64,000 nt of DNA from an uncultured virus (IMG/VR IMGVR_UViG_3300010262_000280) (lineage: Duplodnaviria > Heunggongvirae > Uroviricota > Caudoviricetes): IMG/VR virus record IMGVR_UViG_3300010262_000280. One strand, written 5' to 3'. The notes under the pieces were generated by a model. That model saw nothing but the letters and a program-made list of their open reading frames with translations, was not told where the DNA came from and searched no databases. The position numbers were made by a program, and so were the translations under genes. Below are positions 5,495 to 10,151 of the stretch, one piece after another (position 1 is the stretch's first letter; each line of letters starts with the position of its first letter).

Positions 5495-5917
5495 TTACTC
5501 GCCTCCTGTTGTAGATGTCACGGCGACGATCTGTTCGTAGACATCGCATAGCGCCATCTGCGTATCGGTGACCTGCCCCTCAAGGCTCGTCACCTTTTCC
5601 GTCAATGCCGCCTTGTCGGTCTCCAGGTCGGCTACCTGCTGCTGCAGGGAGGGGATCGTCTTGCCCTCCGCCTCGTGCAGCTTGGCTTGCGCCAGATAAC
5701 CGGCATAGTTGCCGAGGATGTCTTCACTCAGGCCGTCGTACATATTCAGCTCCAGGTGATATTCGTCGTACACCCACCCGCTGATGGTCAGCTCGTCCCG
5801 TTTTTCCTCAAACGGCTCGGCGTTCTCATAGAAGCGTACCAGGGCTACCCCCGGCTTATTAGGCTGCTCCTCCAGCGAGAATGCGTTGCTGGGCGCGTTG
5901 TCGCCTCTTACTCTCAT
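5495..5917 (-). CDS. Tail-fibre-associated coiled-coil protein (XkdW-like position)
   Basis: C-terminal coiled coil ending TQMALCDVYE, followed by XkdX-like genes; overlaps the RT 3' end by 59 nt. Confidence 0.65.
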   Translation of the reverse strand: MRVRGDNAPSNAFSLEEQPNKPGVALVRFYENAEPFEEKRDELTISGWVYDEYHLELNMYDGLSEDILGNYAGYLAQAKLHEAEGKTIPSLQQQVADLETDKAALTEKVTSLEGQVTDTQMALCDVYEQIVAVTSTTGGE

Positions 5918-6956
5918 TTCGCACGACCTCCTTCAGATGTTTTACTCCAATCGGGTCAATGTACTTCACCCGAATTGTATGACTATTGCAGTGTTTCAGT
6001 TGCCCGGCGCGGCTCAGCAGCCCGGAGGCCTGGGCGAACATGATAGGCTTTCCGGCATCAAGCCGCTTTTTGACGCGGCGGCATTGCCGGGTGAAGCGCA
6101 GGAAATTCCGCTTGCGCAGAATAACATGAGTGCGGGAAAAGCGATAGCCGACCGCGCTCACCATGCGCTTTGCCGTGGGATAGATCTGCCAGTTCGCTTT
6201 CATGGACAGGCCGAGCCGCTGCTGCATGAACGCGGCGATCAACTTCCGCGCCTTGTGCAGCTGCTTCTTATTCGGCCCGAGCAGGGTGATGTTGTCCATG
6301 TAGCGGGTCATATACTTCACGCCCGGCAGCGTCATGATGTACTGGTCCAGAGGCTCCAGGTAGAAGTTCGCCAGCCATTGGCAGATGTAATACCCGATAG
6401 CCAGCCCGCCGCCGCAGGATTCGATGATGGAATAGACCGTCCGCAGAAAGCGCTTGTCCTTGATCTTCCGCGCCAGCGCCCAGATCAGCCGCTTGCCGGA
6501 GATGCTGGGGTAATACTGTGCGACGTCCAGCTCAGCGGCGTACTTCGTCCCCTTCGGGTCGTTGCGGAGCGCGCCGCGGATCTTCTTGTGGATTCGCTTT
6601 CCACCACGTCCGGGAATCGACGCGCAGGACCACGGGTGCATCCCGCGCATAAGCACCGGCTTCATGGCCGTCACCAGCATCCACTGGATCACGCCGTCCG
6701 GCCAGAACGGGACCATCTTGATCTTTCGGAACTTCTCGCTGCTCTCGTCGTAGATCTCACGCACTTTCGGCGCGGATGGCACAAAGCTCTCCGTTGCAAC
6801 AAGCTCGTAGGTCTTTTCGACGTATCCGTCAAGGTCCGCCAGTACGCGGGCGATGTCTCGCCTGTTCCGACGTCCCTTAGCCGCCTCCTGTATGACGCTG
6901 CGGATAAAGTCCCGGTCAACCATCTTGTCGTAGAGATAGCCGATTCGTTTCGGCAT
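5859..6956 (-). CDS. DGR reverse transcriptase (atypical YMDN motif)
   Basis: MPKRIGYLY N-terminus, ASIPGRG, ELDVAQYYPSI, LAIGYYICQWLANFYL, RYMDN, VGYRF; adjacent TR/VR pair. Confidence 0.93.
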   Translation of the reverse strand: MPKRIGYLYDKMVDRDFIRSVIQEAAKGRRNRRDIARVLADLDGYVEKTYELVATESFVPSAPKVREIYDESSEKFRKIKMVPFWPDGVIQWMLVTAMKPVLMRGMHPWSCASIPGRGGKRIHKKIRGALRNDPKGTKYAAELDVAQYYPSISGKRLIWALARKIKDKRFLRTVYSIIESCGGGLAIGYYICQWLANFYLEPLDQYIMTLPGVKYMTRYMDNITLLGPNKKQLHKARKLIAAFMQQRLGLSMKANWQIYPTAKRMVSAVGYRFSRTHVILRKRNFLRFTRQCRRVKKRLDAGKPIMFAQASGLLSRAGQLKHCNSHTIRVKYIDPIGVKHLKEVVRNESKRRQRAQQRILAGGAA

Positions 6957-7082
6957 AGGATTTTCCCTCCGTCCTTGTTTGCCTGCGAGATCGTTCGAGC
7001 CGAAGCCTACTAAACCCCGTCCTATGCGGCAATATTTTCACCAAGCGGTGAGGGAAAGCCCGCGCCAGTCAAAAAGAAAAAC
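6957..7082 (-). ncRNA. DGR spacer (3' part of the TR RNA) between TR and RT
   Basis: Non-coding segment in the position of the DGR Sp region; contains CTCACCGCTTGGTGA hairpin. Confidence 0.55.
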
Positions 7083-7221
7083 AAGTAGTCGCGCGCCGAC
7101 GTTGGAGTTCGTGTCGGAAGACGAGTTGTTCGCGTTGAAGTAGAAAAGGCCGGCATTGCCGCCGTTGTTCCAGTTGCCACCGACGTGGAGGACACGCCAG
7201 CCAGAGTTGTAGTTGGCGTAG
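7083..7221 (-). repeat. DGR template repeat (TR), 139 nt
   Basis: Aligns ungapped to 7455-7593 (offset 372); 11 AAY codons and 30 adenines on the coding strand. Confidence 0.97.
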
Positions 7222-7357: not shown

Positions 7358-7415
7358 ACCCCATTCAGCTTTTGGGCTTGCGCTCATGCCGCCAGATAGT
7401 GCAGGCGGGAAAGCT

Positions 7416-7435
7416 CCGGGGGCTGCGGCCCCCGG
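7416..7435 (-). promoter_or_regulatory. DGR target-recognition hairpin 1 (8-bp GC stem, 4-nt loop)
   Basis: CCGGGGGC-CGCA-GCCCCCGG immediately downstream of the VR/stop codon. Confidence 0.8.
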
Positions 7436-7442
7436 TCCCCCA

Positions 7443-10151
7443 TTAGGGGTGGAAAAGGAGTCGCGCGCCGACGTTGGAGCTCGTGTCGGAAGACGAGTAG
7501 CCCGCGCCGAAGAAGAAAAGGCCGGCATAGCCGCCGTAGCTCCAGTCGCCACCGACGCGGAGGACACGCCAGCCAGAGCCGTAGTAGGCGTAGTCCGGAA
7601 TATAGGTCGTCTCGCTGCCGCCGACCGCCGTGGGATAGAACGCCCAGGGCATGGCAGCCGCTACGCCGATGGCGCTAATGTAGCCGTTGTTTTGGATTTT
7701 AGTGCCAATGTTCGTGTAATTGTTTGCGGTGTCATCTGCATAGCTCGCAGGGTTCAGGCAGACATAAACGGTACCATCAGAGAAGTTGATGCCGTCGATC
7801 CACTCGAAGACATTGCCGTAGGGATTCTCGATGTGCCGGTACTGCACGGCGGTTTTTCCATCCGTCCCAGCTGCGCGTCCGGTGTGGTAGGTCATGCTGT
7901 CTGTGCCGCCGGAAGAAATGGCAGAGTTGTTGCTGTCCACATAGCCGCGCCCGATTTTGCTCTGGCTGTCCCAGTCGGAAAACTCCACCAAATAGAGCAG
8001 CCAGACCGCGCACCAAGACGCGAAGTCATACTCGCTCCACTTACTACCCTTTCCTCTGGCACCGGAACGAGCCGATGCGCGGGTCAGGTTGACCAGCGGC
8101 GCAGCGCCGGTCTTGGAATAATGGCCGGAGATCGTGTTGTAGCGGCCGACATACTTGCCGGAGCCGGGGTGCTTGGTGAATCCGCTCTTGGCCTTATCCG
8201 CGATGTAGAAGTACCGTTTCTTGTTGGCGGCATCGTCGATAATACGGAAGTAATACTCGGGGATAAAGACGACGGTATCGTAGCTGCTTCGGGAGAAGCC
8301 GCTCTGCCCCTTCTTGTAGCTTACGGCATTGTTGATGATGTTGTACTCGTCCATGCCGCTCCACGGGAGATAGTTGTCGAAGGGGGAGCTGCCGGCGCCG
8401 GTACCGACCGCAGGCGCGGGATTCGTGGTGATGTCGACATTGACCAGTCCGTTCGGATCGGTGGCCTTCTTCAGCCGTGTCAGAGCCGTCGACTGCGCAC
8501 TGTAATTCCAGCAGACACCGAAGACCTTGACATAGGACAGCTCCAGCGTATAGCCGGTGTAGGAGCTGCAAGCTACGCTGCCGGTGGCCGTCTCGCCGTT
8601 CTTGGTGGCAGTGACGCTCCACGTGCCGGTGTTCGGCAGGTAGAACTTTGCCGTTCCGCTGCTGGTGGCCGTGAGCGTGGTGGAGCCGTTGACCGCCTTG
8701 ACCGTAGAGCCGCTGTCGATGGTGACGGTGAGGGTGCAGAACTTCACCGTTGCGGTGTAACTGCCGCCGGAGGTCGTCACCGACGCGGACGCCGTGGACG
8801 AGGATACCCCGCTCTTGGTGGCCGTCACGGAATAGGTGCCGGCATAGTTGACGGTCAGCGCACACTTGCCGTTGCTGCCGCAGGTGCCGGTATACTGCTT
8901 CGTGCCAAGCGTGGCGGTCACGACAGCGCCGGATTCCGCCGTTACGGTCAGCGTAGCCGCGAAGTAGCTCAGTGTCACCGCGTACTGCTTGACCTGATCC
9001 ACGACCACGGTCTCGGTGGCGGTGGTCTGCCCGTTCAGCGTGGCATACAGCGACCATGTACCGTAGCCGGGGAGGTCAAAAACGCATTTACCGCCGACGC
9101 TGGTGCCGGTCAGAGTAGTCTCGCCGTTCGTACAGGTGATAGCCGATCCGGTGGCAACAGAAACCTCCAACTGCGGAGCCACGCCGCCGCCCTTGGGTTT
9201 CTCCCATGTATATACGCCGGTCTGATCGTTGGCTGCCGTGCAGTAGAAGGTCTGCATGGTGTCTGTGTTCAGATACGACTGGCCGACCGAGCCCTTCGTG
9301 CTGGAGGTCGGATCGGTCGTGCCGGTGAGCGGCTTACTTCCGTCCAGCCCCTTTGAGAGCGTGTCGAGGTCGCCGGAAACGCTGTCAAGGAAGGTGTCGA
9401 GCGATTCACCGTTATAGGTCAGGTCGGCCGCGTCGCTGGCGCCGGACAGCTTCCACTGATACTTGCCGCTGCTGTCCTTGCCGTTGCAGACGTATTCCTT
9501 GCCCGTAGCGCTGTCATAGTAGTGCTGCCCTGCGGTACCCTCGGTCGTGTCTGTCGGCGCTCCTGAGCCTGTTGCAAGTGGATAACCGTAGTCCTTTCCG
9601 GCGACTGCCGCAGAGATATTCCCGCTGCCGTCGCCCATCAGCAGACCCTTGACCATGATCTTGTCCTGCTTGGTCTTTACCGCCTCGGTGATGGCGGCGG
9701 ACATATCGCTCTGTGTGACGCAGGCGCTGGTGTCGACCGTCACCGTCCATGTGCCGGTATTCGAGCAGGAGATCAGCGCGTAAAAGGTGTAGACGAAATC
9801 CGGCGATTCTGTCTTGCTGGGGATGGGAACTCCCTGCTCCAGCTGGAACAGGGCGATCATGGCGGACGCTCCTCCGTCCACGCTGGCAGATACGCGGAAC
9901 TGATTCAGCGTATAGGCCGTATTCGGCGCAGCGATGCGGAGCTTCAGGCGAATGCCGGAAGATACCCTCTCGCCGCCCAGCAGGCTTGCGGTCTGCTTTT
10001 CATTGACGAGGGCGGTCTGTGCCATCATTGCCGCCGCCGCGACGGTGCCCTGCCCCGCAGCTGCGCTGTCGAAGTTCAGGGTCTTTTCATTCACCCACTC
10101 ATTGAGCAGGCTGTTGCCGGCGTTGGTGATGACGCCGTTCCATGTTGCCAT
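7443..10151 (-). CDS. Tail fibre / receptor-binding protein, DGR target (Ig-like repeats + C-terminal CLec-type domain)
   Basis: Follows baseplate genes; three ~75-aa beta-sandwich repeats; IENPYGNVFEWIDG ... RVGGDW ... VGARL C-terminus containing the VR. Confidence 0.9.
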   Translation of the reverse strand: MATWNGVITNAGNSLLNEWVNEKTLNFDSAAAGQGTVAAAAMMAQTALVNEKQTASLLGGERVSSGIRLKLRIAAPNTAYTLNQFRVSASVDGGASAMIALFQLEQGVPIPSKTESPDFVYTFYALISCSNTGTWTVTVDTSACVTQSDMSAAITEAVKTKQDKIMVKGLLMGDGSGNISAAVAGKDYGYPLATGSGAPTDTTEGTAGQHYYDSATGKEYVCNGKDSSGKYQWKLSGASDAADLTYNGESLDTFLDSVSGDLDTLSKGLDGSKPLTGTTDPTSSTKGSVGQSYLNTDTMQTFYCTAANDQTGVYTWEKPKGGGVAPQLEVSVATGSAITCTNGETTLTGTSVGGKCVFDLPGYGTWSLYATLNGQTTATETVVVDQVKQYAVTLSYFAATLTVTAESGAVVTATLGTKQYTGTCGSNGKCALTVNYAGTYSVTATKSGVSSSTASASVTTSGGSYTATVKFCTLTVTIDSGSTVKAVNGSTTLTATSSGTAKFYLPNTGTWSVTATKNGETATGSVACSSYTGYTLELSYVKVFGVCWNYSAQSTALTRLKKATDPNGLVNVDITTNPAPAVGTGAGSSPFDNYLPWSGMDEYNIINNAVSYKKGQSGFSRSSYDTVVFIPEYYFRIIDDAANKKRYFYIADKAKSGFTKHPGSGKYVGRYNTISGHYSKTGAAPLVNLTRASARSGARGKGSKWSEYDFASWCAVWLLYLVEFSDWDSQSKIGRGYVDSNNSAISSGGTDSMTYHTGRAAGTDGKTAVQYRHIENPYGNVFEWIDGINFSDGTVYVCLNPASYADDTANNYTNIGTKIQNNGYISAIGVAAAMPWAFYPTAVGGSETTYIPDYAYYGSGWRVLRVGGDWSYGGYAGLFFFGAGYSSSDTSSNVGARLLFHP
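7455..7593 (-). repeat. DGR variable repeat (VR) at the 3' end of the tail fibre gene
   Basis: 16 mismatches to TR, all at TR adenines (10 A>G, 5 A>T, 1 A>C). Confidence 0.97.

What the first reader, a model, noticed from the sequence alone, without database searches (positions are those of the whole stretch)
6291..6410. DGR reverse transcriptase with non-canonical active site: YMDN and IGYYICQ
Seen: the codons TAC ATG GAC AAC (6302-6291) give YMDN where RTs have YxDD, and the DGR hallmark [LIV]GxxxSQ reads IGYYICQ. The ORF is otherwise intact and the VR shows heavy A-specific mutagenesis. Established: the YxDD aspartates are catalytic carboxylates, and the SQ motif has been linked to DGR-type RTs. 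Inference: either this is an RT lineage that works with a D-to-N active site, possibly with a different error spectrum (A>G dominates here), or a recent GAC>AAC change has frozen the fibre in one variant.
Basis: partly seen in the sequence, partly recalled or inferred. Interest (0 to 1): 0.8.

Follow-up and report, generated by a model that had tools for sequence, protein, structure and literature searches.

The report
Active DGR reverse transcriptases with YMDN site
A gut-phage diversity-generating retroelement uses a reverse transcriptase in which one of the three "catalytic" aspartates is naturally an asparagine, and this is a large, conserved and evidently working lineage rather than a broken gene.

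Summary
The 365-aa RT (5859-6956, minus strand) reads YMDN where Bordetella bRT reads YMDD, and IGYYICQ where bRT reads IGSLTSQ. It is not a null allele. [YHN]MDN occurs in 116 of 121 close homologues (60-99% identity) and in a second, deeply diverged family. RT dN/dS is 0.03-0.17, and the Asn codon varies synonymously (AAC/AAT). Every related locus that reaches far enough upstream has a TR/VR pair with adenine-specific mismatches: 291 of 304 in 21 loci. Phages with identical TRs carry different VRs, and all of those differences lie at TR adenines. So the "frozen fibre" reading is refuted.

The A>G bias is not special to this form; DD-type relatives show it too.

New here: D222N is one part of a concerted switch. 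DD enzymes carry K142/D222/V224/D267/F268. DN enzymes carry E142/N222/T224/[STA]267/A268. Glu142 never occurs with DD (0 of 227) and always occurs with Asn (239 of 239).

The element is an Avd-less, RT-18-RNA-type DGR that diversifies a prophage tail protein in Oscillospiraceae. A 2012 survey reported both aspartates as 100% conserved in DGR RTs, and my searches found no report of the DN form. It is a new variant of a known kind.

The parts
7443..10151 (-). DGR target gene, 902-aa phage tail protein whose last ~46 codons are the VR
   Evidence: ORF. PHROG tail protein phrog_5302 E 1.4e-76 and tail fibre phrog_27381. Baseplate and tail genes lie upstream, holin-like and endolysin genes downstream.
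7455..7593 (-). Variable region (VR)
   Evidence: 139-nt repeat of the TR. 16 of 16 mismatches lie at TR adenines. It differs between phages with an identical TR, only at TR-A positions.
7416..7435 (-). GC-rich hairpin (8-bp stem, 4-nt loop) just downstream of the VR and stop codon
   Evidence: DNA fold of 7385-7455(-), z -3.4. That this position resembles the BPP-1 target-recognition hairpin is inferred from recall.
7083..7221 (-). Template repeat (TR), 30 adenines
   Evidence: Identical over 139/139 nt in L003 and L004.
6971..7050 (-). RT-18 RNA (RF03021) in the TR-to-RT spacer
   Evidence: 68.2 bits against a gathering score of 41.3, E 5.1e-11, full-length model match. Also present in DN and near-DD relatives.
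5859..6956 (-). DGR reverse transcriptase, 365 aa (P0001)
   Evidence: Pfam RVT_1. PHROG reverse transcriptase E 8.7e-91. AF2 model pLDDT 96.6, best PDB match bRT 8ub7_A with TM 0.90 and rmsd 2.4 A. dN/dS 0.03-0.17.
6291..6302 (-). Motif C, Y219-M220-D221-N222 (YMDN)
   Evidence: xMDN in 116 of 121 homologues.
6378..6398 (-). Motif 4, I187-Q193 (IGYYICQ)
6525..6533 (-). Motif A, E142-L143-D144. E142 is the residue that covaries most strongly with N222.
6285..6287 (-). T224, two residues after N222. Thr in DN enzymes, Val/Ile/Leu in DD enzymes.
6153..6158 (-). S267-A268 in motif E (xxVGY). DD enzymes have D-F here.

Best explanation
This is a working diversity-generating retroelement of a temperate tailed phage of gut Oscillospiraceae. 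Its order is target tail gene with C-terminal VR, hairpin, TR, RT-18 RNA, RT, with no Avd gene. The RT belongs to a large natural lineage of DGR RTs in which the second aspartate of motif C is asparagine. The enzyme keeps D144 (motif A) and D221 (first Asp of motif C). In the solved bRT complex these are the two residues that hold the observed Mg2+. It still makes adenine-mutagenised cDNA that replaces the VR. The D-to-N change is not isolated. It comes with K-to-E (sometimes Q) two residues before the motif A aspartate, V-to-T two residues after the Asn, and DF-to-[S/T/A]A in motif E. I read this as an interacting cluster beside the catalytic pair that exists in two states: a K/D/D salt-bridged form and an E/N/S hydrogen-bonded form. 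Shown: the motifs, the clade-wide conservation, the purifying selection, the repeated adenine-specific VR turnover, and the covariation. Inferred: that the RT itself is the polymerase, that two carboxylates suffice, and that the covarying residues touch each other.
For: Motif identity.

Conservation: xMDN in 116 of 121 aligned sequences (the query plus the 120 homologues listed), 60-99% identity. 20 of 127 nearest 50%-identity cluster representatives are DN. A second DN family (about 38% identical) holds clusters of up to 3,944 member sequences.

Selection: pairwise dN/dS 0.026-0.167 with dS up to about 1.2. The N222 codon is AAC in most loci and AAT in L017, L018, L019 and L026. The E142 codon is GAG, and GAA in L029.

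Activity: 22 of 34 DN-family loci had a TR/VR pair. The other 12 have 520 nt or less upstream of the RT, too little to hold any of the VR. Over 21 non-duplicate loci, 291 of 304 mismatches lie at TR adenines and 45% of TR adenines are changed. Seven DN loci from genome contigs, five of them from cultured Oscillospiraceae isolates, give 104 of 107, each with a different VR. The window and L003 differ at 17 of 139 VR positions, all at TR adenines, against 0 of 139 in the TR and 1.6% in the 1 kb upstream.

Second DN family: 25 of 33 loci with enough upstream DNA have clean pairs, 355 of 385 mismatches at A.

No other DGR-type RT: the nearest complete genome has only this RT plus two roughly 600-aa RVT_1 genes, and the virus record has one RT.

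Fold: pLDDT 96.6, TM 0.90 to active-state bRT.

bRT preprint 10.1101/2023.10.23.563531 (passages read): the Mg2+ lies 2.2 and 2.3 A from D138 and D215, and no distance to D216 is given.

Covariation over 480 sequences: E+N 239, K+D 197, Q+D 20, Q+N 10, E+D 0. The columns most informative about residue 222 are 142, 268, 224 and 267. The haplotypes are KDVDF (146) against ENT[STANC]A (214). The DD sister clade at 60-64% identity carries the full KDVDF set.
Against: No biochemistry exists for any DN RT. All evidence of activity is comparative.

The covariation rests on few independent events. There are at least 10 DN changes on a 327-tip tree and 7 independent pairs on supported branches. E goes the same way in 4-5 of these and never the opposite way, sign test p about 0.06-0.125, not significant.

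In the second DN family, 8 of 33 loci gave no clean A-biased pair. One of them (L074) has a pair with mixed mismatches.

Only assembled contigs, not raw reads, could be laid on the locus, so variation within one sample was not shown.

No model coordinates were available, so contact between residues 142, 222, 224, 267 and 268 was not measured.
Confidence: 0.85

Rival explanations
1. Null allele: a recent GAC>AAC mutation inactivated the RT and froze the tail fibre in one variant.
For: D-to-N changes at both motif C aspartates together are used to inactivate HIV-1 RT (passages in PMC5498913 and PMC10415136). These are double mutants only.
Against: Asn is present in 116 of 121 homologues down to 60% identity, with synonymous AAC/AAT variation and dN/dS 0.03-0.17. 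Phages with an identical TR carry different VRs.
Confidence: 0.02
2. Sequencing or assembly error at one base of the Asn codon.
For: None found.
Against: The same codon is seen in 29 independent IMG/VR loci and 11 genome-contig loci. The contigs of four public runs list no difference at 6291-6293, although 95 rows of that table were not shown.
Confidence: 0.01
3. The DN protein is not the polymerase. It only binds the RNA, and another RT in the cell makes the cDNA in trans.
For: The nearest complete genome does carry two other RVT_1 genes of about 600 aa.
Against: Those two match RVT_1 strongly and the DGR RT only at E about 1e-4, so they are not DGR-type. Adenine mutagenesis is a property of DGR RTs (bRT-Avd suffices in vitro, passages in PMC6182149). 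The same cassette sits in at least five genera, so a fixed trans partner is unlikely. D144, D221, G188 and the fingers K75 and R77 are invariant across 141 aligned RTs.
Confidence: 0.04
4. Carboxylate relocation: Glu142 takes over the metal-binding role of the lost aspartate, so the enzyme still has a three-carboxylate site with one ligand moved from motif C to motif A.
For: E142 is the column most informative about N222 (MI 0.89). E occurs only with N (239 of 239) and never with DD (0 of 227). Group II intron RT GsI-IIC has an acidic residue at the same position in the HMMER alignment (VVDMD against AAELD), so an acid there is compatible with RT catalysis.
Against: 10 of 253 DN RTs have Gln, 2 Ser and 2 Val at 142. 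At least two Q142/N222 loci (L100, L103) still show adenine-specific VR mismatches, 14 of 14 and 9 of 10. The three other covarying positions (224, 267, 268) point to a packing or hydrogen-bond network rather than a single ligand swap.
Confidence: 0.25

Closest known systems
Bordetella phage BPP-1 DGR reverse transcriptase bRT (PDB 8ub7)
   Same: Best sequence and fold match in the PDB (E 5.4e-19, TM 0.90). Same motif order. Same adenine-specific TR-to-VR transfer, with about 45% of TR adenines changed here against about 50% reported for bRT (PMC6182149, passages).
   Different: bRT has K136/D216 with YMDD and SQ, and needs Avd. This RT has E142/N222 with YMDN and CQ, no avd gene nearby, and an RT-18 RNA in the spacer.
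Avd-less DGRs of Firmicutes phages with RT-18 RNA (Rfam RF03021)
   Same: Target-TR-RT order. RT-18 at 68.2 bits between TR and RT. Phage tail target.
   Different: RT-18 elements include both DD and DN RTs. The DN active site is a subset feature that I found described nowhere.
Nematode Bel/Pao (belpaovirus) LTR-retroelement RTs with YVDN
   Same: Natural Asp-to-Asn at the second motif C position in an otherwise intact retroelement RT lineage (bioRxiv 10.1101/2021.11.23.469668, passages).
   Different: A eukaryotic LTR element with no relationship to DGRs. Whether it has partner changes like K-to-E is unknown to me.
Mononegavirales L polymerase, motif C GDNQ
   Same: A right-hand palm polymerase family whose motif C reads D-N instead of D-D (title and listing of PMC5648267 only; the rest is recalled).
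   Different: An RNA-dependent RNA polymerase. This is an analogy only.

Membership tests
Diversity-generating retroelement (DGR) | TR/VR repeat pair whose mismatches fall almost only at TR adenines | tested here: met
   16 of 16 in the window. 291 of 304 over 21 related loci.
Diversity-generating retroelement (DGR) | VR at the 3' end of a protein-coding target gene | tested here: met
   The VR at 7455-7593 ends 12 nt before the stop of the 902-aa tail protein ORF.
Diversity-generating retroelement (DGR) | RT of the DGR clade | tested here: met
   Best PDB hits by sequence and by fold are bRT. It clusters with RTs that all sit beside TR/VR pairs.
Diversity-generating retroelement (DGR) | Signature motif [LIV]GxxxSQ in RT motif 4 | tested here: not met
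   Reads IGYYICQ: the I-G and Q are kept, and Ser is replaced by Cys. Other SQ variants (NQ, SP, SH, AQ, VQ, PA) are reported as compatible with DGRs in PMC3521204 (passages). CQ is not in that list.
Diversity-generating retroelement (DGR) | Accessory protein Avd (or HRDC) | tested here: not met
   No Avd-like hit among neighbouring ORFs in PHROGs or Pfam. An RT-18 RNA sits in the spacer instead. Avd-less DGR lineages are known, according to earlier finding e1-2126045.
Diversity-generating retroelement (DGR) | C-type lectin / FGE-like fold of the variable domain | tested here: inconclusive
   No Pfam or PDB sequence hit for the last 285 aa. The AF2 model was too poor to use (pLDDT 49.9).
Canonical reverse transcriptase active site (motif A Asp plus YxDD) | Motif A aspartate and first motif C aspartate | tested here: met
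   D144 and D221 are invariant in 141 aligned RTs.
Canonical reverse transcriptase active site (motif A Asp plus YxDD) | Second motif C aspartate | tested here: not met
   N222, conserved as Asn across the clade.
Canonical reverse transcriptase active site (motif A Asp plus YxDD) | RNA-templated DNA polymerase activity | not testable with these tools
   Inferred only from VR turnover and purifying selection.

The most novel reading that the evidence does not exclude
DGR reverse transcriptases exist in two discrete active-site architectures, K-D-V-D-F and E-N-T-S-A at residues 142/222/224/267/268. These have interconverted several times, possibly through a Gln142 intermediate. The DN form is a true two-aspartate RT whose metal-A and primer-terminus side is rebuilt, with Glu142 or water replacing the lost carboxylate. 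That would give it different metal dependence or kinetics. By motif register (recalled, not measured), the five positions correspond to the residues lining the NNRTI pocket of HIV-1 RT. The switch would then remodel the pocket under the catalytic hairpin.
Probability: 0.3. Interest if true: 0.8.

Novelty: new variant of a known kind. Interest (0 to 1): 0.66.

Why it matters
The three-aspartate site is treated as a defining and essential feature of reverse transcriptases. The only DGR survey I found that comments on it states that both motif C aspartates are 100% conserved (155 elements; PMC3521204, passages).

Here a large and abundant lineage of gut-phage DGR RTs lacks the second aspartate, yet shows every comparative sign of ongoing mutagenic retrohoming. 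Clusters of 2,769 and 3,944 member sequences belong to it, and 20 of 127 nearest cluster representatives are DN.

Three consequences follow:

- DGR- or RT-finding pipelines and annotators that require YxDD or SQ would miss these enzymes or call them dead.
- The lineage offers a natural, paired (DD sister against DN) system for asking what the second aspartate does in an RT. The partner residues to swap are already defined.
- It widens the set of compact, Avd-less RTs available for DGR-based targeted mutagenesis tools.

Prophages with this cassette sit in cultured isolates, so the tests are practical.

Tried and rejected
**Within-sample VR variation.** The only runs offered were Logan contigs. 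Contigs break at the VR and TR in all four runs, and one run has two contigs over part of the VR. This cannot separate true heterogeneity from repeat-induced breaks, so I drew no conclusion.

**Own assembly.** It is not held, so I used the nearest genome and virus record instead.

**Phylogenetic test of E142/N222 coupling.** The direction is consistent but the test is not significant. On 194 tips there were 4 supported pairs, p 0.125-0.5. On 327 tips with the trait columns masked there were 7 pairs, p 0.06-0.125.

**Different error spectrum.** DN against DD gave chi-square p 0.03. The loci are not independent and selection is confounded. The near-DD sisters have 10 A>C of 71 A-site mismatches (summed) against 35 of 291 in DN loci, so I rejected this as a DN-specific effect.

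**Target C-terminal fold.** There was no Pfam or PDB sequence hit, and the AF2 model had pLDDT 49.9, too poor to search with.

**Geometry of the covarying residues.** Model coordinates are not exposed, so no distances were measured.

**Literature on single D186N in HIV-1 RT.** I found only D185N/D186N double mutants.

**Wu et al. 2018 (PMC5758913).** A term search found no discussion of the catalytic motif.

**Register artefact.** The L004 "downstream" mismatch figure (75%) comes from a register shift and is not used.

**Earlier findings.** Look-ups by place and by words returned nothing.

Full report
**What is there**

On the minus strand the window carries a complete DGR. A 902-aa ORF (7443-10151) is a phage tail protein (PHROG phrog_5302, E 1.4e-76). 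It lies between baseplate and tail genes upstream and holin-like and endolysin genes downstream. Its last 139 nt (7455-7593) are a direct repeat of 7083-7221.

The two copies differ at 16 positions, and all 16 are adenines in the 7083-7221 copy: 10 A>G, 5 A>T, 1 A>C. That makes 7083-7221 the TR and 7455-7593 the VR. No further VR copy exists in the window.

A GC-rich hairpin (8-bp stem, 4-nt loop, 7416-7435) follows the stop codon. Between the TR and the RT gene lies a full-length match to the Rfam RT-18 RNA (6971-7050, 68.2 bits against a gathering score of 41.3). No Avd-like gene was found.

The RT ORF (5859-6956, 365 aa) is intact.

**The observation**

Y219-M220-D221-N222 are encoded at 6302-6291 and I187-Q193 (IGYYICQ) at 6398-6378. 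The best PDB hit by sequence is the Bordetella DGR RT (8ub7, E 5.4e-19). The alignment puts RYMDN on RYMDD and IGYYICQ on IGSLTSQ.

An AlphaFold2 model built on 141 aligned RTs has mean pLDDT 96.6. Its best structural match is active-state bRT (TM 0.90, rmsd 2.4 A). The Asn therefore sits at the position of bRT D216, one of the three residues the bRT authors call catalytic (preprint 10.1101/2023.10.23.563531, passages read).

**Is it a dead allele? No.**

Four lines of evidence agree.

- Conservation. The 121 aligned sequences are the query plus the 120 best homologues listed of 629 found (60-99% identity). 116 have [Y/H]MDN. The 5 with YMDD are the most distant ones, at 60-64%.
- Codon usage. 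The Asn codon is AAC in most related loci and AAT in four (L017, L018, L019, L026). The Glu142 codon is GAG, and GAA in L029.
- Purifying selection. Pairwise dN/dS between the window RT and eight relatives is 0.026-0.167, with dS up to about 1.2.
- No substitute enzyme. The nearest complete genome holds this RT plus two roughly 600-aa RVT_1 genes that are not DGR-type. The nearest virus record has only this RT.

**Is the DGR still working?**

I took 46 IMG/VR loci found with the RT, two loci from the nearest genome and virus record, and the window itself. I searched each for a repeat pair with at least 75% of mismatches at one base of one copy.

Of the 34 DN-type loci, 22 had such a pair. The other 12 have 520 nt or less upstream of the RT, and the VR begins about 636 nt upstream, so they cannot contain any of it.

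L047 is the same record as L009 and was dropped. The remaining 21 loci have 291 of 304 mismatches at TR adenines, and 45% of TR adenines are changed.

Seven DN loci from genome contigs add 104 of 107, each with a different VR. Five of them come from cultured isolates of Hominicoprocola, Yanshouia, Agathobaculum and Dysosmobacter and so on. These may overlap with the nearest held genome.

The sharpest test uses the window, L003 and L004, which share an identical TR (139 of 139). Their VRs differ pairwise at 17, 20 and 11 positions, and every one of these lies at a TR adenine. For the window against L003, the 1 kb upstream differs by 1.6% and the VR-TR spacer by 0.4%. VR turnover has therefore happened repeatedly within a phage population whose RT is YMDN throughout.

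Contigs of four public gut runs break at the VR and TR and list differences in the VR. Contigs cannot show variation within one sample, so I do not count this.

**How wide is the DN form?**

Of the 127 nearest 50%-identity cluster representatives with motif C aligned, 20 are DN.

A second DN family is about 38% identical to the window RT and keeps SQ. It was reached with two further searches and includes clusters of 3,944 and 2,445 member sequences. Of its IMG/VR loci with at least 640 nt upstream, 25 of 33 have clean pairs, with 355 of 385 mismatches at A. Eight of 33 do not. One of those (L074) has a pair at the expected place with mixed mismatches.

**Error spectrum**

| Group | A>G | A>T | A>C | Source |
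|---|---|---|---|---|
| DN loci of the window's family | 57% | 31% | 12% | |
| 11 DD relatives | 51% | 27% | 22% | |

The near-DD sisters have 10 A>C of 71 A-site mismatches (summed). A>G dominance is therefore a trait of this whole group of phage DGRs, not of the Asn. These counts are post-selection snapshots.

**A concerted switch**

Across 480 aligned RTs, the residue two before the motif A aspartate pairs with residue 222 as follows:

| Residue 142 | Residue 222 | Count |
|---|---|---|
| E | N | 239 |
| K | D | 197 |
| Q | D | 20 |
| Q | N | 10 |
| E | D | 0 |

The remaining 14 sequences have other residues at 142.

A scan of all columns for information about residue 222 ranks 142 first (E against K). 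Next come 268 (A against F), 224 (T against V/I/L) and 267 (S/T/N/A against D). As five-letter states the data fall into KDVDF-like and ENT[STANC]A-like groups. The DD sister clade of the window's RT (P0116, P0118-P0121) carries the complete KDVDF set.

On FastTree trees the DN state needs at least 7 changes (194 tips) or 10 changes (327 tips, trait columns masked). In independent pairs on supported branches, E follows N in 3-4 of 4 and in 4-5 of 7, and never the opposite way. The sign test does not reach significance (p 0.06-0.5).

All five residues lie in or beside palm strands of the model: 139-145, 222-227 and 266-268. By counting from the invariant D144, N222 and G270, they correspond to HIV-1 RT V108, D186, Y188, L228 and W229. 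V108, Y188 and W229 line the NNRTI pocket. That mapping is recalled, not measured.

**Mechanism**

The simplest reading is that D144 and D221 do the metal chemistry. In bRT the modelled Mg2+ is 2.2 and 2.3 A from D138 and D215. The second motif C position would then belong to a neighbouring polar cluster that can be built either as K/D/D or as E/N/S.

Glu142 as a replacement metal ligand remains possible. It is weakened because Q142/N222 elements (L100, L103) still have adenine-specific VR changes.

**Comparison with what is known**

The element is a member of the Avd-less, RT-18-type phage DGRs. RT-18 accompanies both DN and near-DD RTs, while more distant DD relatives have RT-4.

[quoted passage not shown] It lists the SQ variants SP, SH, NQ, PA, AQ and VQ, but not CQ (PMC3521204, passages).

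Full-text searches found no description of a DN DGR RT. I searched for YMDN with DGR, for YMDN/YVDN/YxDN/YADN, for DGR with YxDD, for DGR with YMDD, and for other YxDD variants. Subscription papers and bioRxiv supplements were not searchable.

Natural precedents elsewhere are the YVDN of nematode belpaovirus RTs and the GDNQ of Mononegavirales polymerases (listing only).

**Verdict**

This is a new variant of a known kind, with a defined and testable set of partner residues.

Noticed in passing
window 6971-7050 (-): Full-length RT-18 RNA (RF03021) lies between the TR and the RT start. The same motif accompanies both DN and near-DD RTs, whereas more distant DD relatives carry RT-4 (RF03025).
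   Followed up: partly
L052, L053, L054, L057, L058 (genome contigs): RTs 95-97% identical to the window's sit in cultured isolates of five Oscillospiraceae genera (Hominicoprocola, Faecousia, Yanshouia, Agathobaculum, Dysosmobacter). Each isolate whose VR could be read (four of the five; none in L053) has its own VR. Either the phage has a broad host range or the cassette moves between phages.
   Followed up: no
window 6300-6302 (Y219) and homologues: The first residue of motif C also varies in this lineage. HMDN occurs in 38 of 121 close homologues, and NMDN or NMDD in some relatives, so even the Tyr of YxDD is not fixed.
   Followed up: no
L068-L110 (second DN family): A>C substitutions are almost absent (2 of 355 adenine mismatches). 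This compares with 12% in the window's family and 22% in DD relatives. It could reflect a lineage-specific misincorporation bias or selection on the target.
   Followed up: no
L005:2412-2545: This VR copy has a 5-nt gap relative to its TR and the target reading frame runs on past the usual stop. This may be a broken target gene or an assembly error.
   Followed up: no
L074:2382-2524 vs 2683-2825: A TR/VR pair sits at the expected place, but only 6 of 19 mismatches are at adenines. The contig may be chimeric or the VR recombined.
   Followed up: no
window 5495-5917 (-): A 140-aa ORF with a coiled-coil C-terminus overlaps the RT's 3' end by 59 nt. It has only a weak PHROG hit of unknown function, and it is not Avd-like by sequence.
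   Followed up: partly
window 7176-7207 and 7417-7460: In all four public gut runs laid on the locus, assembled contigs end at the borders of the TR and the VR. One run has two different contigs over 7549-7755.
   Followed up: partly
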